A DNA stretch of 10,457 bases, from the UHGV virus genome UHGV-2079495; one strand, 5' to 3'. Below the pieces are notes generated by a model. The model made no database searches and was not told where the DNA came from. It saw nothing but the letters and a program-made list of their open reading frames with translations. This document shows, piece by piece, positions 1-10,457 of the stretch. The first letter of the stretch is position 1, and every line of letters starts with the position of its first letter. A program made the translations under genes and the position numbers. The DNA comes from a virus.

Positions 1-903
1 TTATGAAAGCATAGACCGTTTACCCTCCCTGGGTACGACGGAACAGGGGTCCTGATGGATAATCACATCCGATCCCGGAAAACGCCGTAAAATAGCCTGC
101 TCTACCTGATCCGCCACCATATGTGCCTGAACCAAAGGCAGAGAGTCTTCCATTTCCAAATGAATCTGAATAAAGCGGGTCGGCCCTGACTGCCGCGTGC
201 GAAGATCGTGAGCGCCGCTAACACCCGGCCAGGAAGTCACGATATCAATAATTTCTTGCCGTTCCTCATCAGGCAATGCGCGATCCAGTAATGACTGTAC
301 CGCCTCATATCCCATGCGTAACGCGCTATATAAAATATAGATGCCGATTCCCAATGCAAACAGAGCATCGGCGCGATGCCAGCCGTACCAGGACAACCCC
401 AGCGCCAGCAGAATTGCGCCGTTCATCATAACATCAGACTGGTAATGTAGCATATCAGCCCGCACCGCCTGGCTTTGCGTCCGGCGCACCACCCAACGCT
501 GAAACGAGACAAGGATAATCGTACAAATTAGCGCCACAATTGTCACGATAACCCCGACGCCTGGATCTGTCATCGGTGTTGGAGATATCAGATGTTGAAT
601 ACCCGTCAAAAACAGGAATAGTGCCGAACCGGAGATAAACATACTTTGCGCCAGCGCCGCGAGGGACTCTGCTTTACCGTGACCAAACGAGTGATTATCG
701 TCGGCAGGTTGCAGGGAATATCGCACCACCAGTAAATTCGTCAACGACGCGCCGATATCCACCAGCGAATCCACCAGCGCGGCGAGAATACTCACCGACC
801 CGGTATACCACCATGCAAAAATTTTAATCAGCAATAGCAACGAAGCCATCGCCGTCGCAGCAATCGCCGCCCGACTGACCAGCCGTCCATAAGATTGATT
901 CAT
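1..903 (-). CDS. fieF: Cation-diffusion-facilitator family ferrous-iron/zinc efflux transporter FieF (YiiP), complete; the window begins at its stop codon
   Basis: The 306-aa ORF translation contains, from the internal Met ([37 protein letters not shown]...), a 300-aa protein that I recognise as essentially full-length enterobacterial FieF/YiiP. It has multiple hydrophobic TM segments and a C-terminal cytoplasmic domain. Minus-strand SD GGGAG lies about 8 nt upstream of the ATG at 901-903. The ATG at 919-921 is an in-frame upstream alternative, judged less likely. Confidence 0.93.
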
Positions 904-959: not shown

Positions 960-984
960 ATTAAGCAGCAGGCAAATTGAGGAT

Positions 985-1011
985 AAAAAAAACCCCCACA
1001 TCATGTGGGGG
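985..1011 (-). terminator. Rho-independent terminator (minus strand): 8-bp GC-rich stem CCCCCACA/TGTGGGGG, 3-nt loop, then a U8 tract
   Basis: Plus strand reads AAAAAAAA-CCCCCACA-TCA-TGTGGGGG. On the minus strand this is a hairpin immediately followed by TTTTTTTT. Confidence 0.7.
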
Positions 1012-1102
1012 AAGACAGGGATGGTGAAGAAATCCGGCCAGTAACACAATGGAATAAAAGGATTTATTCTAATCTTCGTCTACATTTTGACTACACTTCG
1101 AC

Positions 1103-1128
1103 AAAAAAAGCCCCGTGCATTACGGGGC
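1103..1128 (-). terminator. Rho-independent terminator (minus strand) directly downstream of the cargo operon: 7-bp stem GCCCCGT/ACGGGGC, 5-nt loop, U7 tract
   Basis: Plus strand reads AAAAAAA-GCCCCGT-GCATT-ACGGGGC, beginning 12 nt beyond the stop codon (1140-1142 on the minus strand) of the secreted-protein gene. On the minus strand it is a hairpin followed by TTTTTTT. Confidence 0.75.
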
Positions 1129-1139
1129 TGCACACCGCA

Positions 1140-1772
1140 TTACTTCCATCCACACGCTTTTTGAAGTGGCTTCAATGCCTCAGACAGACCAGCAACATCA
1201 AATGTCGCGCTCACGGGACTTTCATTGTAAGGCGTGATCTGAGTAAACATTGAGTTAGCCTGGCTCAGCGCCTTGACGAACTCAATGACATTGCCACGAT
1301 AAAATACCGATTTGGTATCGCTAGATATGTCCCATGTTTTCGTTTTTGCCTTCTGTTTATCCAAGCGAGATAACATCTGTGTTTCGTTCAACCCAAGATA
1401 GGTATCCCAATTGAGGAAAAGTTCTGTTTTTTTCTCGCGGCAAGTGATGTAAAGACTTGGTGTGATCGATTCCCCAAACTGTGACCGGAAAGAATCATTA
1501 GCAGAAAGGCTAATATAAACATTCTCTGAATCATCCACGGGTGAAGTTTTCGTGGATACCTGCCATTTTCCAACACCTACCACTGGCTTAGCCTCTTCGG
1601 CTACTTTCGGTGGAAGAACCTTATCGTAACAAGCTAAACGCGCATCACTTTTTGCCTCGGATTGGCATTTCATTAATGCGTCATTGTTAATATCGGCTTT
1701 AACTGGTTCTACCGCATACGCTGTTGATACAGCAGAAGAGCAAAGCGCCATAGCAATGATTATCTTTTTCAT
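1140..1772 (-). CDS. Secreted/periplasmic protein of unknown function with a Sec signal peptide and four Cys; carries a CYD motif. Family assignment (possibly VasI-like/DUF) is unverified
   Basis: ORF 1140..1787. The N-terminus MKKIIIAMALCSSAVSTAYA-VEP is a classical signal peptide with an AYA SPase I site. The preferred start is the ATG at 1772-1770, with AAGG about 8 nt upstream. The alternative ATG at 1787-1785 overlaps the upstream gene's stop as ATGA. The mature part is hydrophilic with Cys in MKCQSE, RLACYD, ITCREKK and KACGWK. A few hand-counted 60-nt lines give roughly 40-45% G+C. Confidence 0.7.
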   Translation of the reverse strand: MKKIIIAMALCSSAVSTAYAVEPVKADINNDALMKCQSEAKSDARLACYDKVLPPKVAEEAKPVVGVGKWQVSTKTSPVDDSENVYISLSANDSFRSQFGESITPSLYITCREKKTELFLNWDTYLGLNETQMLSRLDKQKAKTKTWDISSDTKSVFYRGNVIEFVKALSQANSMFTQITPYNESPVSATFDVAGLSEALKPLQKACGWK

Positions 1773-1783
1773 ACCATTACCTT

Positions 1784-2116
1784 TCATGATTTCGGGCGAG
1801 TAAAGAAAACAAACATTCCGATAATGATATCGCCAATAACCCAGATGGTTCCCAGCATCATCATCCCCAGCCCCGTACCAATTGCGGCTCCGGCCCGTTC
1901 TGCGTCTGAGGCTGCGTTATTGATAACGTCACTACTGCCGCCAGCCCCGGCAAAAATGCAATAGATCATAAAGATGTTAAACAGGATAAAAATCCATTTA
2001 ACGATCTTGCCAAATAATGAGCGCTTCGGCTTTCTGACCTGATGGCCGCAAGACGGGCATTTAAACGCTGAATCACTAATTTCTTTACTGCATTCCGGGC
2101 AGTTTACTAATGCCAT
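1784..2116 (-). CDS. Small zinc-ribbon membrane protein (N-terminal CPxC...CPxCG zinc ribbon, two predicted TM helices), unknown function
   Basis: ORF 1784..2137. Motif ...VNCPECSKEISDSAFKCPSCGHQ... is followed by hydrophobic stretches IVKWIFILFNIFMIYCIFAGAG and AAIGTGLGMMMLGTIWVIGDIIIGMFVFF. Preferred start is the ATG at 2116-2114 (MALVNCPEC), with GGAG/AGGA upstream; ATGs at 2137 and 2131 are alternatives. The stop overlaps the start of the downstream gene (ATGA), suggesting translational coupling. Confidence 0.65.
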   Translation of the reverse strand: MALVNCPECSKEISDSAFKCPSCGHQVRKPKRSLFGKIVKWIFILFNIFMIYCIFAGAGGSSDVINNAASDAERAGAAIGTGLGMMMLGTIWVIGDIIIGMFVFFTRPKS

Positions 2117-2180
2117 TTTCCTAGACTCCATAGACATGGTTACATAACCGCCATAAAGCCTATCAGTTGATTTTGTTTGA

Positions 2181-2215
2181 ATAAATAAAAATTAACCCGC
2201 CATATAGGCGGGTTA
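2181..2215 (-). terminator. Rho-independent terminator downstream of ogr (minus strand): 9-bp stem TAACCCGCC/GGCGGGTTA followed by a U-rich tract
   Basis: Plus strand 2193-2215 is TAACCCGCC-ATATA-GGCGGGTTA, flanked by A/T-rich sequence on both sides, so it could act bidirectionally. It lies immediately 3' of the ogr stop (2218-2220) on the minus strand, followed by AATTTTTATTTATT. Confidence 0.65.
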
Positions 2216-2217
2216 TT

Positions 2218-2460
2218 TTAGAGTGCCAGCGATAACTGATCTTCGCCGTGGTGACTTCGTGGAAAAGCTTCTTGTGGCACCATCGCGCCGGGCACTGGCT
2301 GGGTCTGATTTAGTGAACCGTCTATTTCCGTCATGCTGGTGAAACAGTACCCGCACAACATATTTTGACACTGGTGATAGCTGCGCCGTACAAGCAAACT
2401 CAGCTCAACGCTGGTTCTGGTTTTTGCTATTGCACGGCAGCGAGGACAGCGCATTGCCAT
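2218..2460 (-). CDS. ogr: P2 Ogr/Delta-family zinc-finger late-gene transcriptional activator
   Basis: 80-aa ORF MAMRCPRCRAIAKTRTSVELSLLVRRSYHQCQNMLCGYCF... has the Cys arrangement C-x2-C...C-x4-C and the RYHQCQN-like core I recall from P2 Ogr (about 72 aa). Strong SD AGGAGG lies 7 nt upstream of the ATG at 2460. It sits immediately downstream of gpD, as in P2. Confidence 0.85.
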   Translation of the reverse strand: MAMRCPRCRAIAKTRTSVELSLLVRRSYHQCQNMLCGYCFTSMTEIDGSLNQTQPVPGAMVPQEAFPRSHHGEDQLSLAL

Positions 2461-2498: not shown

Positions 2499-2527
2499 AG
2501 TATAACGCTTAAGACGTTGAATCGTCA
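2499..2527 (-). promoter_or_regulatory. Candidate sigma70 promoter for ogr (minus strand: TGACGA-N17-TATACT), overlapping the 3' end of D
   Basis: Minus-strand -10 TATACT at 2504-2499 and -35-like TGACGA at 2527-2522 with a 17-nt spacer, about 40 nt upstream of the ogr ATG. Judged by eye. Confidence 0.35.
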
Positions 2528-3627
2528 CTCTCCGCTGTCCAGTCGTCGATTTTTACTTCCAGTTCCAGCGACGTGGTAAACCCTCCCCCGCCAATATCGT
2601 GAACGCACCGCGTTATCGTCCAGTTCCCACTGTCGATCGTGGACTTAAAGCCGTAGACGCTGGCGGGCTGTTCCGGGTACAAATCTGCGCGGCCACGCGC
2701 TAGGGTGATGCTGAACGTCGCCGCCCCACGCTGCAACTCTCGCCACTTAGCCGCAGCGGCACGCTTCGCCGCCTTTTCCGTCTTGAAAGTTTTACGGATA
2801 ACAAAAACGTTACCTTCGGCCCCGGCCAGATAATCCCCTTCTTTTTTGCTTGATGCAGGTTCTTTCTTTTTGGCCTGGCTGGTGCGTCGCCTGCGGGTGG
2901 TTTTCTTCACGGTAGTGGATGGCTTTTTGCCAAAGTTGAGATCAAGCCAGTATGCAGTTACGCCCGTGTACGCGTCGCGGTCAGCTACGTTAAACCTATG
3001 TTTATCACCGCTTGACCGGACGATCTCGATCACTGGCAACGGCTTGCCGCTTTGCGTTACTCCCTTGCCCGGCGTGATAAACAGAAGCATACCGTTTTTA
3101 ATGGTTGCCACCGCGCCCAGCATTTCGGCCATACGCGTTAAGAAGCTGATATCTGATTCACTCGTCTGATCGGCGTGGTCTATCTCAATCTTCGCCAGTT
3201 CTTCGCTGACACCCGCACGCAGATCGTAGCGGCTGGCAATGCTGGCGACCACATCCCCCACGGTAATATCGTGCCAGCTATATTCCCGCTTCACGTTGAA
3301 GGTATCGCGGAAATCTGCGCTTCTGGCACTGATCGTTAGCTGGTCAGGCGGGCCAGCGTGTCCGATCTCGTCAACCGTATACACGCCCTTAAAAACCAAT
3401 GGATCATTATCCCAGCCCAGCGCCACCGATATCTTTGCGCCGCGTGATGGTAATGCTACCTGCCCGTCTGCATCATCCAGAGTCAGATCCAGTGTGTCCG
3501 CTTCGAAGCCCCGGTTATCTGTCAGGGAAAGGGAGATCAGCCGGTTATCCAGCGCCGTAAGCTGCTTACCTTCAATCTCAATACTGAACGCCGGGCGCGG
3601 CGAATATCGGTTTTCTGTCGTGTCCAT
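2509..3627 (-). CDS. D: P2 gpD-family tail protein (phage late control gene D protein)
   Basis: 372-aa ORF. Size (P2 gpD is about 387 aa) and position adjacent to ogr match, and the sequence character (MDTTENRYSPRPAFSIEIEGK..., C-terminal GGGGFTTSLELEV) fits the late-control-D family as I recall it. SD GAAGGGG lies upstream of the ATG at 3627. Confidence 0.88.
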   Translation of the reverse strand: MDTTENRYSPRPAFSIEIEGKQLTALDNRLISLSLTDNRGFEADTLDLTLDDADGQVALPSRGAKISVALGWDNDPLVFKGVYTVDEIGHAGPPDQLTISARSADFRDTFNVKREYSWHDITVGDVVASIASRYDLRAGVSEELAKIEIDHADQTSESDISFLTRMAEMLGAVATIKNGMLLFITPGKGVTQSGKPLPVIEIVRSSGDKHRFNVADRDAYTGVTAYWLDLNFGKKPSTTVKKTTRRRRTSQAKKKEPASSKKEGDYLAGAEGNVFVIRKTFKTEKAAKRAAAAKWRELQRGAATFSITLARGRADLYPEQPASVYGFKSTIDSGNWTITRCVHDIGGGGFTTSLELEVKIDDWTAESDDSTS

Positions 3628-3784: not shown

Positions 3785-4978
3785 ATGGCCACTAACTACC
3801 ATCACGGTGTAACCGTCACGGAAACCACCGACCTTAGCACGATGATCACCGACATTGATTCTGCGGTGATCGGCGTTGTCTGCACCGCTGATGATGCGGA
3901 CGAAACAGCGTTCCCGCTGGATACCCCTGTACTGATCACCCGCGTGGCTAACATGCTGGGCAAGGCAGGTAAAACCGGCACCCTGTTTACCACCCTGAAA
4001 GCGATTTCAGACCAGACCAGCCCGCAAACCATTGTGATCCGCGTTGCTGATGCTGCAAATATCGAACCGCCAGAAGGCGGCACCGCACAGACACAGGATC
4101 AACTGGTTATTGGCGGCACCGATGCAAACGGACGCTTTACCGGCATGTACGCGCTGCTGTCTGCCGAAATGCGCGTAGGCGTGCGCCCACGTGTGCTGGC
4201 TGTTCCCGGTCTTGATACGGAAGCGGTGGCCGCACAACTCGGCGTCATTGCCGAAAAGCTGCGCGCGTTTGCTTACGTGGCAGCGAACGGCTGCAACACT
4301 ATCGCCGAAGTGAAGGAATACCGCGAACAGTTCTCCCAGCGTGAAATGATGGTTATCTGGCCTAATTTCATCTGCTACGACACCAACGCCGGGGCGAATG
4401 CCACCGTGCCCGTGGGTGCCCATGCGGTTGGGATGCGCGCCAAAATCGACGCAACGCAGGGCTGGCATAAAACCATTTCCAACGTGCCCGTTAATAACGT
4501 GCTGGGGATGGATCGGGATATCTATTTCACGTTGCAGGGCACCGATACCGACGCCGACGAACTGAACGCAGCAGGCGTTACCACGCTGATCAAGCAGGAC
4601 GGCTACCGCATCTGGGGATCGCGTACCTGCGACGCGGAAACGTATATCTTCGAAAGCTATACCCGAACCGCGCAGATCGTTGCGGATACCGTCGCCGAAG
4701 CCCATTTCGCCTATGTTGATAAACCGCTTACCCCGTCGCTGGTAAAGGACATTGTGGACGGCATCAATAAGAAGCTGACCTCATATGTGACGGCTGGCAA
4801 GCTGCTGGGCGCCCGCTGCTGGTATGACCCGGAACCGAATACCTCGGAAACCCTGCGCAATGGTCAACTGACCATTAAGTACAACTACACCCCTGTTCCA
4901 CCGCTGGAAAATCTCAGCCTGGTACAGGAGTTCACCGACGAATATTTCGCTACGTTTTCCAGCGCAGTGAATAACTAA
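3785..4978 (+). CDS. FI: P2 gpFI-family contractile tail sheath protein
   Basis: 397 aa (P2 FI is about 396 aa). N-terminus MATNYHHGVTVTE... and overall sequence recognised as the myovirus P2-type sheath. Followed at a 12-nt spacing by the tube gene. Confidence 0.93.
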   Translation: MATNYHHGVTVTETTDLSTMITDIDSAVIGVVCTADDADETAFPLDTPVLITRVANMLGKAGKTGTLFTTLKAISDQTSPQTIVIRVADAANIEPPEGGTAQTQDQLVIGGTDANGRFTGMYALLSAEMRVGVRPRVLAVPGLDTEAVAAQLGVIAEKLRAFAYVAANGCNTIAEVKEYREQFSQREMMVIWPNFICYDTNAGANATVPVGAHAVGMRAKIDATQGWHKTISNVPVNNVLGMDRDIYFTLQGTDTDADELNAAGVTTLIKQDGYRIWGSRTCDAETYIFESYTRTAQIVADTVAEAHFAYVDKPLTPSLVKDIVDGINKKLTSYVTAGKLLGARCWYDPEPNTSETLRNGQLTIKYNYTPVPPLENLSLVQEFTDEYFATFSSAVNN

Positions 4979-4990
4979 CCGGGGGCGCTT

Positions 4991-5506
4991 ATGGCACTGC
5001 CTAAGAAACTCAAATATTTCAATATGTTCTTTGACGGGGATAACTACTTCGGCATGGTGCCGGAAATCACCCCCGCCAAACTCACCAAAAAAACCGAAGA
5101 CTACCAGGCGGGCGGTATGCCGGGTTCAGTTGCGGTGGATCTGGGCTTCGACGCTGGCGCCCTGGATATGGATATTACGCTGGGCGGCATGGATGCCGGG
5201 CTAATGAAAAAATGGGGCGTTACCACTGCGGACGGAATGCAGGTGCGCTTTGCTGGCTCTTACCAGGACGATGCGACCGGCGACGCCGTACCGTGCGAAA
5301 TCCAGACGCGTGGCCGCTTCACTGAACTGGATCCCGGTTCGGCAAAGGTTGGGGATGATACTTCGCATAAGTACACCCTGAAAAATACCTATTACAAGCT
5401 GACCATCAATAGCGAAGAAATTATCGAAATTGATGTGCTCAACATGATCTACAAAGTTGCCGGTGTGGATGTGCTGGAAAAACACCGCGCTAACATCGGC
5501 TTATAA
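4991..5506 (+). CDS. FII: P2 gpFII-family tail tube protein
   Basis: 171 aa (P2 FII is about 172 aa). Conserved position between sheath and E. N-terminus MALPKKLKYFNMFFDG... is typical of P2-like tube proteins. SD GGGGG upstream. Confidence 0.9.
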   Translation: MALPKKLKYFNMFFDGDNYFGMVPEITPAKLTKKTEDYQAGGMPGSVAVDLGFDAGALDMDITLGGMDAGLMKKWGVTTADGMQVRFAGSYQDDATGDAVPCEIQTRGRFTELDPGSAKVGDDTSHKYTLKNTYYKLTINSEEIIEIDVLNMIYKVAGVDVLEKHRANIGL

Positions 5507-5520
5507 GGAAACCCGGCACC

Positions 5521-5856
5521 ATGAGCAAGACCAAAGAAAACACCGTTATTCTTACCGCCCCTATTACGCGCGGTAAGACCAAAATCACCGAAGTGGCGAT
5601 CACTTCCGTGCTTAAACAGGCTGGATCACTGCGCGGCTTAAAAGCCTATGACGTGCTGACGTCCAACTATGACGCGCTGGTTATTCTGCTGCCCCGCGTT
5701 ACCGCTCCGGCATTAACCGCCGATGAGATTGCCCGAATGGATACCTGGGATTTTTGCCAGTTAGCCAACGCGGTGGTTGATTTTTTGCAACCCTCTTCGG
5801 ATCTGACCGCGACGGATACGGGCAACGAATCATCCGATGCCCCTGCGAACGCATAG
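5521..5856 (+). CDS. E: P2 gpE-family tail assembly chaperone (zero-frame product)
   Basis: 111-aa ORF immediately after FII and before the tape measure. Contains the TTTTTTG slippery heptamer near its 3' end. SD AAGGAAAC upstream. Confidence 0.85.
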   Translation: MSKTKENTVILTAPITRGKTKITEVAITSVLKQAGSLRGLKAYDVLTSNYDALVILLPRVTAPALTADEIARMDTWDFCQLANAVVDFLQPSSDLTATDTGNESSDAPANA

Positions 5857-5981
5857 AAGACCTGATGGCAGATATCGCCGTCATATTCCACTGGCGGCCG
5901 GTAGAGATGGACGCCATGACGGTACAGGAAATACTGTTATGGCGTGATCAGGCGGCTGCGCGCAGTGGTGGAGATCACTAA
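5521..5981 (+). CDS. E': gpE+E' tail assembly chaperone fusion made by a programmed -1 ribosomal frameshift at 5781-5787
   Basis: After a -1 slip on T-TTT-TTG (zero-frame codons GAT TTT TTG at 5779-5787), my hand translation from 5787 reads ATLFGSDRDGYGQRIIRCPCERIEDLMADIAVIFHWRPVEMDAMTVQEILLWRDQAAARSGGDH. This open frame stops at TAA 5979-5981, which directly abuts the tape-measure ATG at 5982, the same arrangement as P2 E/E'/T. Confidence 0.7.
5781..5787 (+). promoter_or_regulatory. Programmed -1 frameshift slippery heptamer TTTTTTG (X XXY YYZ in the E frame)
   Basis: Exact heptamer in the correct phase (T-TTT-TTG) relative to the E reading frame. The -1 frame is open for 64 codons and ends exactly at the T start. 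Confidence 0.7.
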
Positions 5982-8900
5982 ATGGCAGACCGCAATTTAA
6001 ATATCAGGGTGGCATTCAGCGCCCTGAATAATATGTCCCGCCCTGTCAACGCGGCGCGCCAGAGTGCCGCCGCGTTGGCGTCTCAAATCAATCAGACCAA
6101 AACCAGCATTAAAGGGCTTGAGCGTCAGGCAACCAGCTTTGACCGCCTCACCGCAGCCAATAAAAAAACCACCGAACAACTGGCCCAGGCGAAAGAACAG
6201 GCCCGGCAAATGGCGGCGGCTTATGGCCCGTTACGCCAGCGCAGCGCCGAACAGGTTGCCGCCCTCAATCAGCAACGTGCAGCCATTCGCCAGTTAACCC
6301 AGCAGCAGAAAGGCGAGCAGACGCAGCTTAACCAGTTGCGCGCCAGCTTCTACAGCGAAGGCATTGCGATCAGCAGCGCCAGCCGGGCGACGGAACAGAT
6401 CAACCAGCGCACCGCGCAATACAACCGCCAGCTTGCCGAACAGCAGCGACGGCTTGACGCTGTTAACCAGGCGCAGGCCCGTTACAGCCGCGCCAAAGAA
6501 ACCGGCGAAAAGATGATGAGCGGGGGGATGAAAACCGCCGCAGTAGGGGCGGCAACCCTCGCACCTGTCGCCGCTGCGGTTAAATCATACAGCAGCCTTG
6601 AAGACGCCATGAAAGGCGTAGCCAAACAGGTAAACGGCTTGCGTGACGACAGCGGCAACCGCACCCCGCAGTATGAAGAAATGCAGCGGGCGATCATGGA
6701 TGCCAGCGAAAAGCTACCAATGGCTAACGGCGCTGTTGACTATGCCGCCCTGGTCGAAGGTGGCGCGCGCATGGGCGTGGCAAACAGCGATGATCCGTGG
6801 GAAAAACAAAAAGCCGATCTGCTGGCTTTCGCCAGCATGGCGGCAAAAGCTTCGGTAGCCTTTGAACTGCCCGCCGATCAGCTTTCTGAAAGCCTCGGTA
6901 AGATTGCCGGGCTGTATAAAATCCCTACCCAGAATATTGAACAGTTAGGCGACGCCATAAACTACCTGGACGATAACGCGAAGTCGAAAGGCTCCGATAT
7001 TATCGACGTGCTCCAGCGCGTTGGCGGACTTGCCAGCCAACTGGATTACAAGCAAGCCGCCGCGCTGGGTTCCACCTTCCTGACGCTTGGATCACCTGCC
7101 GAAGTTGCCGCCAGCGCAACCAATGCAATGGTGCGCGAACTATCGATCGCCACAGTACAAAGCGATAAATTTTTGGGTGCGCTGGATGAAATCGGCATCA
7201 ATGCTGAAAAAGTCCAGAAAAGCATGTCAGTGGACGCGATGGGCACGATCATTTCAGTGCTGGAAGCGTCCAAAAAACTTGCACCAGATAAGCAGGTAGC
7301 CAACCTTACTCAGATTTTCGGTAAAGAGTTCGGCGATGATGCGCAGAAACTTGCGAACAACCTGCCCGAACTACGCCGCCAGATAGAACTGACGCAGGGC
7401 GCAGCCGCTAAAGGTTCCATGAATCGGGAATCTGATATCAATAAAGCGTCCCTTTCAGCTCAGTGGCAACTGACCAAAACCGGCGCGGTTAACGCATTGA
7501 GTTCAGCAGGGGAAACGCTCCGCGAACCGCTGATGGATATCATGCTTACCGTCAGTAAGGTGGTTGGCAGCGTCCGCCGCTGGGTTGAGGCAAACCCGGC
7601 TCTGGTTGGCTCAATCATGAAAGTCACCGCAGCCATAGGCGCGTTGCTGGTTGTCGTGGGTGGCCTGATGCTGACCATCGGCGCAGTGCTCGGCCCGATG
7701 GCACTTGTTCGCCTCAGCTTCACCACGCTGGCTGGCTCCGGTGGGGTAACTCCCCTCATAGGCTCGCTGGGAAAATTATCCAGCACATTACGCGGGCTGA
7801 TCCCCTCACTATCTGGCGTGGGCCGAAGTATTAAAGACTGGCCTGCCCTCTTCCGATCTGCTGCGTCTGGCATTACCCAATTTAGTAAACAAGCTATTGG
7901 CGGGTTAAACACAGCGTTAATGGCACTTTCACGCGGTGCTGTTGCTGCCGGACAGGGGCTATTTACCCTATTCACAAGGCCTATGACGGCTATAACCTGG
8001 CTTGGTAATGGCCTCAGAACTCTGGCGACCTCCGGTTTCGGCGCTTTGCTGAACGTTGGACGCACCGTAATGATGGCGTTGGGTGGCGGGTTATCATTAC
8101 TTCTTAGCCCTATTGGAATACTGGTAATCGCTTTATCAGCAGCAGCGATCGCCGTTATTAAATTCTGGGAACCTATAAAAGCCTTTTTCACTGGCTTTTA
8201 CACCGGGTTAATGAGTGGCTTACAGCCTTTAACCTCAGCATTTAGTACAGCCTTTGCACCACTAGCCCCACTCTTTGACTCTATCGGTAATGCTGTCGGT
8301 GGCGTCTGGGAGTGGTTCACAAAACTATTCGAACCTATCCAGTTCTCCAGCGAAGCGCTAGCCTCCTGCACCAGTGCCGGGGAAACGTTCGGTAAGGTTG
8401 TAGGTAACGCTCTATCTGCATTAACACCAATAATCGAAGGAATAGCGCGCGGTATAGGATGGGTACTGGAAAAACTCGGCGCCATCCCCGACGCAACAAA
8501 AGCAGCGCAGCAAGCTGCGGAAAGTATGCACAAAGACCCTGTTGTCTGGGAGTGGGATCCGCAGCAAAAGAAAATGGTTAAAAAGGGTTGGAACTGGTCG
8601 CCGAAAGACGATCAGCAGAAGAAAACCAACCAGAAGCAACAGCAGGCCATTGACCAGCAGAAAAAGCAGGAAAGCTTAATTAACTCGCTCAAGGGCCCGG
8701 CCAACATCGTGCCGAAGATGAGCAGCAGCCTGGATAAGATCGCCACCAATACCACGGAGAAGAAAGACGGCCCCGGCGAAATTGTCTTCAAGAATAAGCA
8801 GCCCTATATCCCGATCCGTGGTGGATATTCGGAACCGCTTAAGCAGGTGCAGCGCCAACTACCATCCCTTACCGATTGGGTGACGCAGCAGGCCGGATCG

Positions 8901-9152
8901 CTGATCGCTTCCGTTACGCCTTGGCAGGTTGAGAAGCCCGCCGCACGGATGCCTGTTTCGGCGTCTCCGTCTGCGGCTTCCGTCGCTGCGCTGATGCCTG
9001 CTCCGGGTGGCGATGTATATAACCTTAACTTCGACTTTAGCGGCCAGAAACTGGATGAAGAAACCATTATCAGGCGCGTGCGCGAAGAACTTGCGTTAGC
9101 GAAGCAACAGGCCGACCGGCGCAAGCGCTCCCAACTGACCGATCACGTCTAA
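5982..9152 (+). CDS. T: Tail tape measure protein (P2 gpT family)
   Basis: 1056-aa ORF immediately after E/E'. N-terminal Q/A-rich, coiled-coil-like region, a central hydrophobic Gly/Ala-rich segment and a C-terminal K/Q-rich region, typical of tape measure proteins. Position between E' and U is as in P2. Confidence 0.9.
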   Translation: MADRNLNIRVAFSALNNMSRPVNAARQSAAALASQINQTKTSIKGLERQATSFDRLTAANKKTTEQLAQAKEQARQMAAAYGPLRQRSAEQVAALNQQRAAIRQLTQQQKGEQTQLNQLRASFYSEGIAISSASRATEQINQRTAQYNRQLAEQQRRLDAVNQAQARYSRAKETGEKMMSGGMKTAAVGAATLAPVAAAVKSYSSLEDAMKGVAKQVNGLRDDSGNRTPQYEEMQRAIMDASEKLPMANGAVDYAALVEGGARMGVANSDDPWEKQKADLLAFASMAAKASVAFELPADQLSESLGKIAGLYKIPTQNIEQLGDAINYLDDNAKSKGSDIIDVLQRVGGLASQLDYKQAAALGSTFLTLGSPAEVAASATNAMVRELSIATVQSDKFLGALDEIGINAEKVQKSMSVDAMGTIISVLEASKKLAPDKQVANLTQIFGKEFGDDAQKLANNLPELRRQIELTQGAAAKGSMNRESDINKASLSAQWQLTKTGAVNALSSAGETLREPLMDIMLTVSKVVGSVRRWVEANPALVGSIMKVTAAIGALLVVVGGLMLTIGAVLGPMALVRLSFTTLAGSGGVTPLIGSLGKLSSTLRGLIPSLSGVGRSIKDWPALFRSAASGITQFSKQAIGGLNTALMALSRGAVAAGQGLFTLFTRPMTAITWLGNGLRTLATSGFGALLNVGRTVMMALGGGLSLLLSPIGILVIALSAAAIAVIKFWEPIKAFFTGFYTGLMSGLQPLTSAFSTAFAPLAPLFDSIGNAVGGVWEWFTKLFEPIQFSSEALASCTSAGETFGKVVGNALSALTPIIEGIARGIGWVLEKLGAIPDATKAAQQAAESMHKDPVVWEWDPQQKKMVKKGWNWSPKDDQQKKTNQKQQQAIDQQKKQESLINSLKGPANIVPKMSSSLDKIATNTTEKKDGPGEIVFKNKQPYIPIRGGYSEPLKQVQRQLPSLTDWVTQQAGSLIASVTPWQVEKPAARMPVSASPSAASVAALMPAPGGDVYNLNFDFSGQKLDEETIIRRVREELALAKQQADRRKRSQLTDHV

Positions 9153-9161
9153 GGCAATATC

Positions 9162-9611
9162 ATGATGATGATTCTGGGGATGTTCCCCTTTTCACTGCAA
9201 ACCACACCTTACCAGAGTGCGAATAAAACCAACTCCTGGCGGCACGTCAAAAACGATCGCGTGGGGAAATCCCCGCGCTATCAGTTCATCGGCGCAGATG
9301 AAGAACCGTTCGTACTCAGCGGCACGCTGTACCCCGAAATAAGCGGCGGTGATGTGTCGCTTGTCATGCTGGAAACTATGGCTTTTTCCGGGCGCCCGTG
9401 GCCCCTGATAGAAGGCACGGGCAGGATCTACGGCATGTATGTAATTGAGCAGATCACGCAAAACCGGACGGAGTTTTTTAAGGACGGGAAGGCAAAGAAA
9501 ATTGATTTCACGCTCAACCTGAAACGGGTAAGCGAGGACATACGGGAAAAGCTGGCTGAAACCACTACCGACGATCTCTTCTCTCTGGTGAAAACCAACC
9601 TTTCGATATAA
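9162..9611 (+). CDS. U: P2 gpU-family tail protein
   Basis: 149 aa (P2 gpU is about 159 aa), directly downstream of T (9-nt gap, SD AAGG). N-terminus MMMILGMFPFSLQTTPYQ... resembles gpU as I recall it. Confidence 0.85.
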   Translation: MMMILGMFPFSLQTTPYQSANKTNSWRHVKNDRVGKSPRYQFIGADEEPFVLSGTLYPEISGGDVSLVMLETMAFSGRPWPLIEGTGRIYGMYVIEQITQNRTEFFKDGKAKKIDFTLNLKRVSEDIREKLAETTTDDLFSLVKTNLSI

Positions 9612-9614
9612 GAA

Positions 9615-9640
9615 AAGCGGGCCATTGCCCGCTTCGTCTT
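9615..9640. terminator. Hairpin AAGCGGGC-CATT-GCCCGCTT between convergent U and invertase genes; possible bidirectional terminator
   Basis: 8-bp stem at 9615-9634, 4 nt after the U stop. The plus-strand downstream tract CGTCTTCC is only weakly U-rich; the minus-strand tract (TTTCTTATA) is better, but the stem lies about 85 nt from the invertase stop. Confidence 0.4.
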
Positions 9641-9717
9641 CCGTAATACACCACCATAACTGACCGTGCTACAGCACCGTTAAAAGTGACCGTACTCGAT
9701 ACACACGGCCAGCACGG

Positions 9718-10299
9718 TTATAACCGGCCATGCGTGCCGGAATTCTTATCTCTGGTCGCTGGGAATTTTTTGTAAAGCGTAGATATCCCAACATCATAAA
9801 TTATGGCAACCCTCCGGCGCGATTCCCCTGCCGCTATTAACCTACCCGCCTGCGCCCATTGTTCTGGTGTTAGTTTTGGACGTCTACCGCCGATCCTTCC
9901 CTGCGCGCGAGCGGCCACCAGTCCTGCACGCGTACGCTCGACAATCAATTCTCTTTCCATCTCTGCCAGTGCTCCCATAACATGAAAAAAGAAACGCCCC
10001 ATTGGTGTTGAGGTATCAATACTGTCAGTCAGGCTGCGGAAGTTCACGGAACGTTGCTTTAGTTCCTCCACCAGAATGACCAAGTTCCGCATACTCCGCC
10101 CAAGACGATCCAGCTTCCAGACAACAAGCGTATCTTCTGGAGAAAGGCGCTTTAGTAATTTTTTAAGCCCTGGCCTTTCCGCTGTTCTCCCGCTCATTTT
10201 ATCTTCAAAAATTATCTCACATCCTGACCGCTCAAGCGCATCACGTTGCAAAGCCGTGTTCTGGTCATTTGTTGATACGCGCACATATCCAATAAGCAT
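9718..10299 (-). CDS. pin: Serine-recombinase DNA invertase of the Pin/Gin/Cin/Hin family
   Basis: 193-aa ORF MLIGYVRVSTNDQNT...DTLVVWKLDRLGRSM...SLTDSIDTSTPMGRFFFHVMGALAEMERELIVERT...STLYKKF. It is near-collinear with E. coli e14 Pin and Salmonella Hin as I recall them, with the catalytic Ser in the RVSTNDQ motif and a C-terminal HTH. SD AAGGAA upstream of the ATG at 10299-10297. Confidence 0.93.
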   Translation of the reverse strand: MLIGYVRVSTNDQNTALQRDALERSGCEIIFEDKMSGRTAERPGLKKLLKRLSPEDTLVVWKLDRLGRSMRNLVILVEELKQRSVNFRSLTDSIDTSTPMGRFFFHVMGALAEMERELIVERTRAGLVAARAQGRIGGRRPKLTPEQWAQAGRLIAAGESRRRVAIIYDVGISTLYKKFPATRDKNSGTHGRL

Positions 10300-10353
10300 G
10301 GTTTTTCATTCCTTTAAAACGATAAATCATGCCATTCGGCTAATAATTATGCA

Positions 10354-10379
10354 TTTTCAAAAACGTTCGTTTTGGAGGA
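10354..10379. other. Candidate 26-bp invertase crossover site (gix/hix/cix-like): TTTTCAAAAACG-TT-CGTTTTGGAGGA with a 2-bp core at 10366-10367
   Basis: Imperfect inverted repeat of 12-bp half-sites around a central TT/AA dinucleotide. The half-sites resemble the hix/gix half-sites I recall (TTATCAAAAACC and TTATCCAAAACC). It lies 55 bp upstream of the invertase start, as gix/cix sites do next to gin/cin. Confidence 0.6.
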
Positions 10380-10382
10380 ACC

Positions 10383-10457
10383 ATGCAACCGCTTGTTACC
10401 GGTGACTCAATTGCATATGTTCCTATCGGAGCGCAGACATTGATTATTCAGATTGGC
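10383..10457 (+). CDS. 5' end of an ORF beginning just inside the putative invertible segment (MQPLVTGDSIAYVPIGAQTLIIQIG...); function unknown, runs off the window
   Basis: ATG at 10383 preceded by a strong SD, GGAGG at 10374-10378, which lies inside the right half of the crossover site. Only 25 codons are visible. It is not in the supplied ORF track, presumably because it is below the length cut-off. Confidence 0.3.
   Translation, partial: MQPLVTGDSIAYVPIGAQTLIIQIG

What the first reader, a model, noticed from the sequence alone, without database searches (positions are those of the whole stretch)
1103..2215. Insulated, A+T-richer two-gene cargo operon at the ogr end of the prophage: zinc-ribbon membrane protein plus secreted Cys-rich protein
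Between the last conserved phage gene (ogr) and host fieF sit two tightly coupled minus-strand genes: the stop of the first overlaps the start of the second as ATGA. The unit is bracketed by its own intrinsic terminators (2181-2215 upstream, 1103-1128 downstream). Its base composition differs visibly from both the tail genes and fieF (roughly 40-45% versus about 55% G+C in a few hand-counted lines). Gene 1 is a small N-terminal CPxC...CPxC zinc ribbon with two TM helices. Gene 2 has a textbook Sec signal peptide, four Cys and a CYD motif. This is the classic moron architecture, and the region between ogr/D and the att site is known to be variable among P2-like phages (empty in P2, the tum operon in 186). 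A membrane protein paired with a periplasmic protein is reminiscent of superinfection-exclusion pairs such as T4 Imm/Sp, so this could be an uncharacterised envelope-acting exclusion or defence module, or a lysogenic-conversion factor. I could not assign either protein to a characterised family with confidence; a VasI-like assignment for gene 2 is only a vague recollection.
Basis: partly seen in the sequence, partly recalled or inferred. Interest (0 to 1): 0.78.

Follow-up and report, generated by a model that had tools for sequence, protein, structure and literature searches.

The report
Prophage cargo pair acting in envelope
At the end of a P2-family prophage sit two conserved accessory genes, for a small zinc-ribbon inner-membrane protein and a secreted VasI/IalB-fold periplasmic protein; they probably act in the lysogen's envelope, perhaps to exclude other phages, but their function is untested.

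Summary
Window 1109-2215 holds a two-gene minus-strand unit between ogr and the prophage/host junction (about 1026/1027, inside the 3' end of cpxQ, upstream of fieF).

- **Composition and terminators:** the unit is 44.1% G+C against 52-55% around it. It is closed by a strong intrinsic terminator and preceded by ogr's terminator.
- **Gene 1** (1784-2116, 110 aa) is a cytoplasmic CPxC...CPxC zinc ribbon plus a helical hairpin of two membrane helices carrying a GxxxGxxxG motif.

- The true starts are probably M8 and M6, so the genes are 11 nt apart rather than overlapping as ATGA.
- No convincing promoter is seen in this copy.
- Gene 2 is not the T6SS VasI equivalog.

The pair recurs at the ogr end of many Peduoviridae prophages and phages. 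It co-varies (r 0.92) and is under purifying selection (dN/dS about 0.07-0.08). Relatives of either gene sit in prophage repressor operons.

No characterised function exists. Exclusion or defence is the best inference (about 0.4). The only experimental precedent, SDIC4B, shows no detectable sequence homology.

The parts
982..1026 (.). Probable att core: the 3' end of host cpxQ including its terminator hairpin (993-1011). The prophage/host junction is at 1026/1027.
   Evidence: K-12 identity ends at 1026, which maps inside cpxQ. The same prophage in a Salmonella chromosome aligns from 982 onward. Hairpin -14.4 kcal/mol.
1027..1108 (.). Phage-derived att arm, non-coding.
   Evidence: Window 1050-1112 is 94-95% identical to the int-proximal non-coding region of Salmonella phages SEN4/SEN5 and Enterobacter phage phiT5282H. 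It is absent from K-12.
1109..1129 (-). Intrinsic terminator of the two-gene unit: an 8-bp G+C-rich stem followed by T7.
   Evidence: -14.7 kcal/mol, z -3.4.
1140..1772 (-). Gene 2: secreted VasI/IalB-fold periplasmic protein, 210 aa (an alternative ATG at 1787 gives 215 aa). It has a signal peptide ending AYA|VE, a helical C-x11-C 'RLACYD' motif and a C-terminal beta-sandwich with a second Cys pair.
1773..1783 (-). 11-nt spacer with an AAGG Shine-Dalgarno for gene 2. The stop of gene 1 (1786-1784) overlaps the alternative ATG at 1787 as ATGA.
1784..2116 (-). Gene 1: 110-aa inner-membrane protein (an in-frame upstream ATG at 2137 is probably not used). It has an N-terminal Cys4 zinc ribbon, a basic linker RKPKRS and a helical hairpin of two membrane helices with the GxxxGxxxG motif AGAAIGTGLG and a conserved TRPKS end.
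   Evidence: Alignment of 30 homologues, all about 110 aa. phrog_6586 2e-38. Zn-ribbon Pfam hits below cut-off. AF2 pLDDT 81, helices 34-66 and 71-105. dN/dS 0.068.
2117..2192 (-). Upstream leader. It is homologous to a conserved promoter-like element of relatives (TTGTCA-N16-TAAAAT followed by CAAAATGTTTTGTAACAAA) but is degenerate here (TTATTC-N16-TAGGCT). A GGAG Shine-Dalgarno lies 9 nt before the ATG at 2116.
   Evidence: No consensus promoter.
2193..2215 (-). Intrinsic terminator directly after the ogr stop (2220-2218). It separates ogr from the cargo unit.
   Evidence: -16.8 kcal/mol, z -3.7.
2218..2460 (-). ogr/Delta late-gene activator, the last conserved phage gene. It is not part of the cargo.
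   Evidence: Pfam Ogr_Delta 50.9 bits.

Best explanation
This is a horizontally acquired accessory (moron-type) operon of a Xuanwuvirus/P88-like P2-family prophage. The prophage is integrated in the 3' end of cpxQ, next to fieF.

**Shown**
- The operon makes two envelope proteins.
- Gene 1 is an inner-membrane protein with a cytoplasmic Cys4 zinc ribbon and a glycine-zipper helical hairpin.
- Gene 2 is exported by Sec to the periplasm. There it folds into a probably doubly disulfide-bonded VasI/IalB-type beta-sandwich behind a short helical Cys motif.
- Both are conserved, co-inherited and under purifying selection.

**Inferred**
- The unit is expressed from the prophage in the lysogen.
- It acts at the envelope to protect the lysogen from incoming phage, or from other puncturing or injecting devices.
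- The periplasmic protein binds an envelope or invader component during penetration or DNA entry.
- The membrane protein is its anchor, modulator or effector partner.
- In the wider family the zinc-ribbon/two-helix protein looks like a conserved core, paired with interchangeable extracytoplasmic partners.
For: **Position.** The unit lies in the variable ogr-att-int-C region of P2-family phages. [quoted passage not shown]

**Recurrence.**
- The pair is adjacent in 19 Peduoviridae phage records.
- It is adjacent after ogr in E. coli IHE3034-type prophages at a different integration site.
- It is adjacent in Dickeya and in 9-11 of 80 genome loci.
- Pairwise identities co-vary, r 0.92.
- dN/dS is 0.07-0.08.

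**Lysogen-type placement of relatives.**
- A 50%-identical VasI-like gene sits between the C repressor and int in a Serratia P2-like prophage.
- VasI-like genes directly follow repressor genes in Brucella phage BiPBO1 and Klebsiella phage ST11-VIM1phi8.1.
- The zinc-ribbon/two-helix gene follows the CI repressor by 31 nt in Rodentibacter P2-like prophages and is itself followed by secreted proteins.

**Envelope location.** Signal peptide, invariant Cys pairs and AF2 models.

**Partner pattern.** 47 of 79 loci of the gene-1 family have a tightly linked neighbour with an N-terminal signal or anchor, against about 25% background. These neighbours include VasI, weak IalB-like, DUF4352, OB-fold and DUF7424 domains.

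**Precedents.**
- Secreted SDIC4B, described as having a VasI-like fold, alone gives 10-200-fold phage protection (bioRxiv 10.1101/2024.01.28.577318).
- The periplasmic Glo protein of the P2-family Vibrio phage K139 is treated as an exclusion/immunity gene (PMC4870250; the original work is from my own knowledge).
Against: - There are no experimental data for this family.
- PADLOC finds nothing, and both PHROG families have unknown function.
- SDIC4B shows no detectable sequence relationship to gene 2: no blastp hit, hhalign probability 1.2%, no Pfam VasI hit. That precedent therefore rests on a fold similarity reported by others, which I could not test.
- No convincing promoter is seen in this copy, so expression in the lysogen is unproven.
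- The gene-1 family also occurs as a chromosomal orphan (Pantoea, between a MerR regulator and a copA-like ATPase). Only 8 of 80 loci have P2 hallmark genes nearby.
- VasI-like genes often occur without it, so an obligate two-protein mechanism is not established.
Confidence: 0.4

Rival explanations
1. It is a lysogenic-conversion or fitness factor unrelated to phage exclusion. The periplasmic IalB/VasI-fold protein and its membrane partner would alter envelope physiology, for example cell-wall or division-associated processes, stress tolerance, adhesion or invasion.
For: - The membrane part of gene 1 is colinear with the division protein DrpB/YedR, though weakly: NCBIfam 25.8 bits against a cut-off of 50, hhalign probability 19%.
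- Chromosomal orphans exist in Pantoea.
- The phiSM homologue was listed as 'virulence' cargo from annotation alone (PMC6456863).
Against: - IalB's own mechanism is unknown, and the Pfam IalB score is below cut-off (15.3 against 22.1).
- The DrpB similarity is not significant.
- Nothing links the pair to a host-interaction locus.
- Its distribution follows temperate phages in free-living, plant-associated and animal-associated bacteria alike.
Confidence: 0.25
2. It is a genuine type VI secretion accessory, as RefSeq's name TagO implies. The phage-borne VasI homologue would modulate the host's T6SS or protect the lysogen against T6SS attack.
For: - Pfam VasI membership and the RefSeq name.
- The VasI/TagO role in T6SS is itself listed as unknown (PMC13584744), so it cannot be excluded on mechanism.
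Against: - NCBIfam VasI equivalog TIGR03360 scores 41 bits against a cut-off of 124.2.
- No inspected locus has T6SS genes beside it. The neighbours are ogr, D, int, repressors or the host junction.
- It travels on phages between hosts.
- The authors of the SDIC4 study likewise found their VasI-like genes outside T6SS clusters.
Confidence: 0.1
3. It is an abortive-infection or lysis-type membrane effector. The glycine-zipper two-helix protein would oligomerise into a pore when triggered, and the periplasmic protein would act as sensor or inhibitor.
For: - GxxxGxxxG (AGAAIGTGLG) is nearly invariant in TM2.
- The protein is small and predicted as a helical hairpin.
- It pairs with variable partners while the core stays conserved.
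Against: - There is no similarity to known holins or 2TM defence effectors in PADLOC, PHROGs or BFVD.
- Stable chromosomal orphans without a partner argue against an intrinsically toxic protein.
- No toxicity data exist.
Confidence: 0.1
4. The two genes are independent passengers with no joint function, or decaying remnants.
For: - Each family occurs without the other.
- The promoter is degenerate in this copy.
- A frameshifted gene-1 copy exists in Izhakiella (L007).
Against: - Adjacency with 4-11 nt spacing is conserved across genera, and the pair co-varies, r 0.92.
- dN/dS is 0.07-0.08.
- Both reading frames are intact with Shine-Dalgarno sites.
Confidence: 0.1

Closest known systems
VasI / TagO family (Pfam PF11319; T6SS-associated VC_A0118, EvfG)
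   Same: Gene 2 matches the whole Pfam profile above the gathering score. It shares the signal peptide, the N-terminal C...RLxCYD motif and the C-terminal beta domain ending in C-x-W.
   Different: It is far below the NCBIfam equivalog cut-off (41 against 124.2 bits). It is never next to T6SS genes here and is carried by temperate phages. The family's function is unknown even within T6SS.
IalB (invasion-associated locus B, PDB 3dtd)
   Different: 14% identity. The Pfam IalB score is below cut-off. There is an extra helical Cys motif. IalB's mechanism is itself unknown.
SDIC4 anti-phage system of Serratia (SDIC4A + SDIC4B, 'VasI-like fold'; bioRxiv 10.1101/2024.01.28.577318)
   Same: A small secreted protein said to have a VasI-like fold, encoded with a second small envelope protein on mobile or defence DNA of Enterobacterales. 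The secreted protein alone protects 10-200-fold.
   Different: No sequence or profile similarity of gene 2 to SDIC4B, nor of gene 1 to SDIC4A, C, D or E. SDIC4B belongs to another family (PF27224) and does not hit Pfam VasI. The partner here is a zinc-ribbon membrane protein rather than a secreted one. No BrxR is nearby.
Envelope-acting superinfection exclusion genes of temperate and lytic phages (K139 Glo, T4 Imm/Sp, HK97 gp15, Ltp-type lipoproteins)
   Same: Small inner-membrane and/or periplasmic proteins encoded by accessory genes near the immunity/att region and expressed in lysogens. Glo is a periplasmic protein of a P2-family phage (the rest is from my own knowledge).
   Different: No sequence similarity to any annotated PHROG family of that kind. 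The resemblance is in architecture and position only.
DrpB (YedR), E. coli two-helix division protein
   Same: Colinear motifs across both membrane helices: R-S-x-GK-x-x-W-F, AG-x-x-G-x-x-G and TRP[KR]. NCBIfam E-value 1e-5.
   Different: Below cut-off (25.8 against 50 bits) and hhalign probability only 19%. DrpB has no zinc ribbon.

Membership tests
Pfam VasI (PF11319) | HMM score at or above the gathering threshold over the domain | tested here: met
   50.1 bits against 26.5, profile positions 1-184 of 184, residues 40-214. All 103 homologue clusters carry PF11319.
T6SS VasI/TagO equivalog (NCBIfam TIGR03360) | Score at or above the curated equivalog cut-off | tested here: not met
   41 bits against a cut-off of 124.2.
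T6SS VasI/TagO equivalog (NCBIfam TIGR03360) | Encoded inside a T6SS gene cluster (between vasH and tssA/vasJ in Vibrio) | tested here: not met
   The neighbours are the zinc-ribbon gene, ogr, gpD and the att/host junction here and in relatives. Other phage copies sit beside repressor or int genes.
T6SS VasI/TagO equivalog (NCBIfam TIGR03360) | Contribution to T6SS assembly or activity | not testable with these tools
   This needs Hcp secretion or killing assays. The role is listed as unknown even for canonical TagO.
IalB family (PF06776) / IalB fold | Pfam score at or above the gathering threshold | tested here: not met
   15.3 bits against 22.1.
IalB family (PF06776) / IalB fold | Same three-dimensional fold | tested here: met
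SDIC4 anti-phage system | Homologue of SDIC4B (PF27224) | tested here: not met
   No blastp hit. hhalign of the two family alignments gives probability 1.2%.
SDIC4 anti-phage system | SDIC4A partner (subtype I) or SDIC4C-D-E partners (subtype II) | tested here: not met
   No significant blastp similarity of gene 1 or gene 2 to any of them.
SDIC4 anti-phage system | Shared VasI-like fold of the secreted component | not testable with these tools
The claim for SDIC4B rests on the authors' HHpred and AlphaFold work.
SDIC4 anti-phage system | Reduces phage plating | not testable with these tools
   This needs an experiment.
Moron (autonomous accessory unit in a prophage) | Present or absent between conserved genes in related phages | tested here: met
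   SEN4/SEN5 share the att arm but carry another gene. Relatives carry a long-form partner with or without hok. K-12 has an empty site.
Moron (autonomous accessory unit in a prophage) | Deviant base composition | tested here: met
   44.1% G+C. No other 998-nt window falls below 47.8%.
Moron (autonomous accessory unit in a prophage) | Own terminator | tested here: met
   Hairpin plus T7 at 1129-1109.
Moron (autonomous accessory unit in a prophage) | Own promoter | tested here: inconclusive
   No consensus match in this copy. Relatives have a conserved TTGTCA-N16-TAAAAT at the homologous place.
PHROG families 6586 and 1848 | Significant HMM match | tested here: met
   2e-38 and 1.1e-35. Both have unknown function.
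DrpB/YedR (NCBIfam NF038392) | Score at or above the curated cut-off | tested here: not met
   25.8 bits against 50. hhalign probability 19%.
Known anti-phage defence systems (PADLOC-DB 2.0) | Match to any defence-protein model | tested here: not met
   Only two chance-level hits on the zinc ribbon. Nothing for gene 2.
T4 Imm/Sp-type exclusion pair | Sequence homology to Imm or Sp | tested here: not met
   The PHROGs scan returned only unknown-function families at E <= 0.01. The resemblance is architectural only.

The most novel reading that the evidence does not exclude
The 110-aa zinc-ribbon/glycine-zipper membrane protein would be the conserved core of a widespread, undescribed two-component envelope module. 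It pairs with interchangeable extracytoplasmic partners (VasI/IalB-fold, DUF4352, OB-fold, DUF7424 and small secreted Cys-rich proteins). The module spreads by phages and islands across bacterial phyla, with 55-60% identity between Enterobacterales, Bacteroidota, Synergistota and Planctomycetota. In prophages it would work as a new class of injection-blocking or exclusion system, with the partner setting specificity.
Probability: 0.25. Interest if true: 0.7.

Novelty: new member of a known kind. Interest (0 to 1): 0.5.

Why it matters
If the pair excludes phages, it would add an envelope-level protection module carried by common P2-family prophages of E. coli, Klebsiella, Salmonella and Citrobacter. 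That bears on phage therapy host range and on prophage competition.

It would also give the first function to the phage branch of the large VasI/TagO family, which has about 7400 clusters at 50% identity. The RefSeq name TagO ties this branch to type VI secretion, although no copy inspected here lies beside T6SS genes.

The conserved zinc-ribbon/two-helix protein with swappable periplasmic partners offers a simple, testable system. If no phenotype appears, the locus remains an ordinary uncharacterised moron.

Tried and rejected
- **PADLOC:** scan of both proteins found nothing.
- **PDB by sequence:** profiles of both families gave only chance hits.
- **SDIC4 link:** I took the SDIC4A, B, C, D and E sequences from the preprint's plasmid table. 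There was no blastp similarity. I used the last homologue search to build an SDIC4B family alignment. hhalign against the gene-2 family gave probability 1.2%. Membership in SDIC4 is rejected.
- **T6SS accessory reading:** rejected as a family assignment, because the equivalog cut-off is missed and no T6SS genes are nearby.
- **DrpB similarity:** followed up against K-12 drpB. It is suggestive but not significant.
- **BFVD fold search with the gene-1 model:** nothing at E <= 0.001.
- **AFDB50 fold search:** the library was unavailable.
- **Rfam scan of the whole window:** no matches, including no cpxQ hit.
- **Inverted repeats around the invertase gene:** none found within the window.
- **Promoter and P2 late-promoter dyad (TGT-N12-ACA) search upstream of gene 1:** none.
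- **Lipoprotein reading of gene 2:** rejected. The Cys in the signal peptide is preceded by Leu and is not conserved.
Full report
**Layout of the window**

ORF listing and Pfam scans give the following gene order:
- fieF (1-903, minus strand).
- A non-coding stretch.
- Two minus-strand ORFs (1140-1787 and 1784-2137).
- ogr (2218-2460, minus) and gpD (2509-3627, minus).
- On the plus strand, sheath FI, tube FII, E, tape measure (5982-9152) and U.
- A serine invertase (9718-10299, minus).

This divergent D/ogr versus FI-U arrangement is that of Xuanwuvirus (P88-like) Peduoviridae, for example Citrobacter phage Shae_phiSM and Escherichia phage PhiR44_2.

**Where the prophage ends**

Alignment with prophage-free E. 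coli K-12 shows identity from fieF up to window 1026 and none beyond. Position 1026 maps inside the annotated sRNA gene cpxQ. The prophage therefore sits in the 3' end of cpxP/cpxQ, and the hairpin at 993-1011 is the cpxQ terminator.

The same prophage in a Salmonella chromosome aligns from window 982 onward. The att core is therefore about 982-1026.

Window 1050-1112 is 94-95% identical to the int-proximal non-coding DNA of phages SEN4/SEN5 and phiT5282H. Those phages carry a different small gene at the equivalent place.

The two ORFs are therefore inside the prophage, at a variable position, and are not host genes.

**Checking the observation**

- **Terminators.** Both are real by consensus and by folding: 2215-2193 at -16.8 kcal/mol and 1129-1109 at -14.7 kcal/mol, z about -3.5. 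The upstream one follows the ogr stop directly, so it is ogr's terminator.
- **Composition.** G+C of 1140-2137 is 44.1% against 52-55% for every neighbour. No other 998-nt window in the sequence falls below 47.8%.
- **Start codons.** The ATGA overlap is present in the DNA. However, all 30 aligned homologues of gene 1 begin at the residue equivalent to M8 (MAL[IV]NCPEC) and are about 110 aa. RefSeq annotates the near-identical E. coli proteins at 110 and 210 aa. The probable coordinates are therefore 1784-2116 and 1140-1772, with an 11-nt spacer carrying AAGG. The genes are still tightly linked.
- **Promoter.** I found no promoter of 8/12 or better between the ogr terminator and gene 1. Relatives have a conserved TTGTCA-N16-TAAAAT followed by a conserved CAAAATGTTTTGTAACAAA. 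The homologous stretch here reads TTATTC-N16-TAGGCT. Autonomous transcription is plausible by homology but unproven for this copy.

**Gene 1**

Its features:
- A Cys4 zinc ribbon, with all four Cys invariant.
- A basic linker.
- Two hydrophobic helices.
- A nearly invariant AERAGAAIGTGLG segment (GxxxGxxxG) and a conserved TRPKS end.

Other results:
- AlphaFold (pLDDT 81) gives a small ribbon plus a helical hairpin, residues 34-66 and 71-105. With the positive linker this implies N-in/C-in topology and a very small periplasmic tip.
- It matches phrog_6586 (2e-38, unknown function) and only sub-threshold zinc-ribbon Pfam models.
- The membrane part is weakly colinear with the division protein DrpB/YedR, below every threshold.

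The family is very widespread and very conserved:
- More than 250 clusters at 90% identity were found.
- There are 116 genome loci across Proteobacteria, Bacteroidota, Synergistota, Planctomycetota and others, at 45-60% identity.
- Only 8 of 80 fetched loci have P2 hallmark genes within 6 kb.

Its contexts include:
- An Agrobacterium island with a reverse transcriptase and transposases.
- A chromosomal slot between a MerR regulator and a copA-like ATPase in Pantoea.
- Rodentibacter P2-like prophages, where it follows the CI repressor by 31 nt and precedes secreted small proteins.

**Gene 2**

- It has a Sec signal peptide ending AYA|VE. It is not a lipoprotein: the Cys in the signal peptide is not conserved and lacks a lipobox.
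- The motif is C-x11-C within CQSEAKSDARLACYD, and there is a second invariant Cys pair (C111, C207 in 210-aa numbering).
- It passes Pfam VasI over the full profile (50.1 bits against 26.5) but misses the NCBIfam T6SS VasI equivalog by a wide margin (41 against 124.2).
- It matches phrog_1848, unknown function.
- AlphaFold (pLDDT 84.9, above 90 over residues 70-210) gives two short helices and a beta-sandwich.
- BFVD finds only uncharacterised phage proteins.
- Sequence searches of the PDB find nothing.
- The superfamily is large: 7383 clusters at 50% identity with E <= 1e-3.
- Close relatives come in short (205-220 aa), middle (about 250 aa) and long (about 295-320 aa) forms. These differ by one, two or three copies of the Cys motif.

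**Recurrence of the pair**

- In complete E. coli genomes only 3 of 5426 carry this exact version. About 124 carry a 73%-identical gene 1. In IHE3034 this is followed by a 297-aa 'TagO' after ogr and hok, in a prophage at another site.
- In the phage collection, 19 Peduoviridae records have both genes adjacent: Klebsiella Kp48xx and 3LV2017, Escherichia 500465-2 and PhiR44_2, Citrobacter phiSM and Xuanwuvirus P884B11.
- The same ogr, zinc-ribbon, VasI order is found in Dickeya, Brenneria, Klebsiella, Raoultella and Salmonella.
- Pairwise identities of the two proteins co-vary over 13 loci, r = 0.92.
- dN/dS is 0.068 for gene 1 and 0.083 for gene 2.

Each family also occurs without the other. 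VasI-like genes stand alone in three settings:
- Between the C repressor and int in a Serratia P2-like prophage.
- After repressor genes in Brucella phage BiPBO1 and Klebsiella phage ST11-VIM1phi8.1.
- Among secreted proteins in Pasteurella phage Pmp14.

**A wider pattern**

In the 79 scorable gene-1 loci, 47 have a tightly linked same-strand neighbour with an N-terminal hydrophobic signal or anchor. The background is about 25% of long ORFs.

The neighbours fall into several families:
- VasI-like proteins.
- Membrane-anchored proteins with weak VasI or IalB-like matches.
- Zinc-ribbon, TM and OB-fold (tRNA_anti-like) proteins.
- DUF4352 and DUF7424 lipoproteins.

The small membrane protein thus looks like a constant element with exchangeable extracytoplasmic partners.

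**What is known**

- RefSeq calls gene 2 'TagO'. A 2026 review lists the TagO/VasI function as unknown.
- The phiSM homologue was tabulated as 'T6SS VasI family protein, virulence' from annotation alone.
- The only functional lead is SDIC4 of Serratia. SDIC4B is a secreted 157-aa protein that the authors describe as having a VasI-like fold and no BLAST identity to VasI. Alone it gives 10-200-fold protection.

I took the SDIC4 sequences from the supplement. No similarity to either of our proteins was detectable:
- There was no blastp similarity.
- SDIC4B does not hit Pfam VasI.
- The SDIC4B family belongs to PF27224.
- hhalign of the two family alignments gave probability 1.2%.

The window's pair is not a member of SDIC4. 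At most it works in a similar way.

P2-family phages are known to keep defence and exclusion genes in variable hotspots, including one between a tail gene and the CI regulator. Phage K139 has a periplasmic Glo protein treated as an exclusion/immunity gene.

**Conclusion**

The feature is real and is a typical prophage accessory unit encoding an inner-membrane/periplasmic protein pair from two uncharacterised families.

The most likely role is protection of the lysogen at the envelope. This rests on four things:
- Placement of relatives in repressor operons.
- The hotspot position.
- The envelope location of both products.
- Architectural precedents.

I put this at about 0.4. A non-exclusion lysogenic-conversion role (0.25), a T6SS-related role (0.1), a pore-type abortive effector (0.1) and 'no joint function' (0.1) remain open.

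It is a new member of a known kind. It has moderate interest because the hypothesis is directly testable and because the conserved zinc-ribbon/two-helix protein with swappable partners has not been described.

Noticed in passing
window 982-1112: The prophage is integrated in the 3' end of the sRNA gene cpxQ (the cpxP 3' UTR). The terminator hairpin at 993-1011 lies in the probable att core. The same site is used in a Salmonella chromosome (L006). The adjacent att arm is shared with phages SEN4/SEN5 and phiT5282H. Rfam did not report cpxQ here.
   Followed up: partly
window 2509-3627 (minus) versus 3785-9611 (plus): gpD and ogr are divergent from FI-FII-E-T-U, unlike P2 where (from my own knowledge) all are co-linear. 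This is the Xuanwuvirus/P88-type arrangement seen in PhiR44_2 and phiSM.
   Followed up: partly
window 5781-5983: A slippery TTTTTTG lies near the end of gene E, and the -1 frame stays open to 5983, just past the tape-measure start codon at 5982. This is the expected E/E' programmed frameshift of P2-type tail chaperones.
   Followed up: partly
window 7733-8655: About 920 nt inside the tape-measure gene do not align with the otherwise 96-98% identical prophage of E. coli MS 57-2. The tape measure is 1056 aa here and 975 aa there, so it has a variable internal segment.
   Followed up: no
window 9718-10299: A serine DNA invertase (Resolvase plus HTH_7) follows gene U. In the closest relative, MS 57-2, a tail-fibre assembly gene follows U instead, and similarity ends at about 9743. 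This suggests an invertible tail-fibre segment beyond the window. No inverted repeats were found within 9400-10457.
   Followed up: partly
L002, L003, L086, L009, L020, L022, L075 (upstream of the gene-1 homologue): A conserved promoter-like TTGTCA/TTATCA-N16-TAAAAT is followed by a conserved CAAAA-TG-TTTTG-TAACAAA element, a possible operator. Both are degenerate in the window's copy.
   Followed up: partly
L086 5580-5720; L002 1665-1805: In the IHE3034/PhiR44_2-type prophages a small ORF lies between ogr and the zinc-ribbon gene. It is annotated Hok/Gef family in IHE3034 and hypothetical in PhiR44_2. The ogr-att hotspot therefore stacks several small membrane-protein genes.
   Followed up: no
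alignment A3; e.g. L002 172-1065: Long forms of the VasI-like protein (about 295-320 aa) carry three tandem copies of the C-x(8-12)-RL-x-CYD motif before the beta domain. Middle forms carry two and the window's short form carries one.
   Followed up: partly
L093/L094 7001-7333 (Pantoea): The gene-1 family occurs as a partner-less chromosomal gene between a MerR-family regulator and a copA-like P-type ATPase in Pantoea. It was found in many contigs.
   Followed up: no
L091 3761-8203 (Agrobacterium): The gene-1 homologue sits with a zinc-ribbon/TM/periplasmic-domain gene and a secreted Cys-rich protein. They lie in an island with a reverse transcriptase, an HTH regulator, transposases and a resolvase, which is a defence-island-like context.
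   Followed up: no
BFVD matches of the gene-2 model: Uncharacterised proteins of phages RB16, KP15, Aeromonas 65.2 and Vibrio VH7D share the VasI/IalB-type fold (E 5e-7 to 3e-3). From my own knowledge most of these are lytic T4-like phages, so the fold may not be restricted to temperate phages.
   Followed up: no
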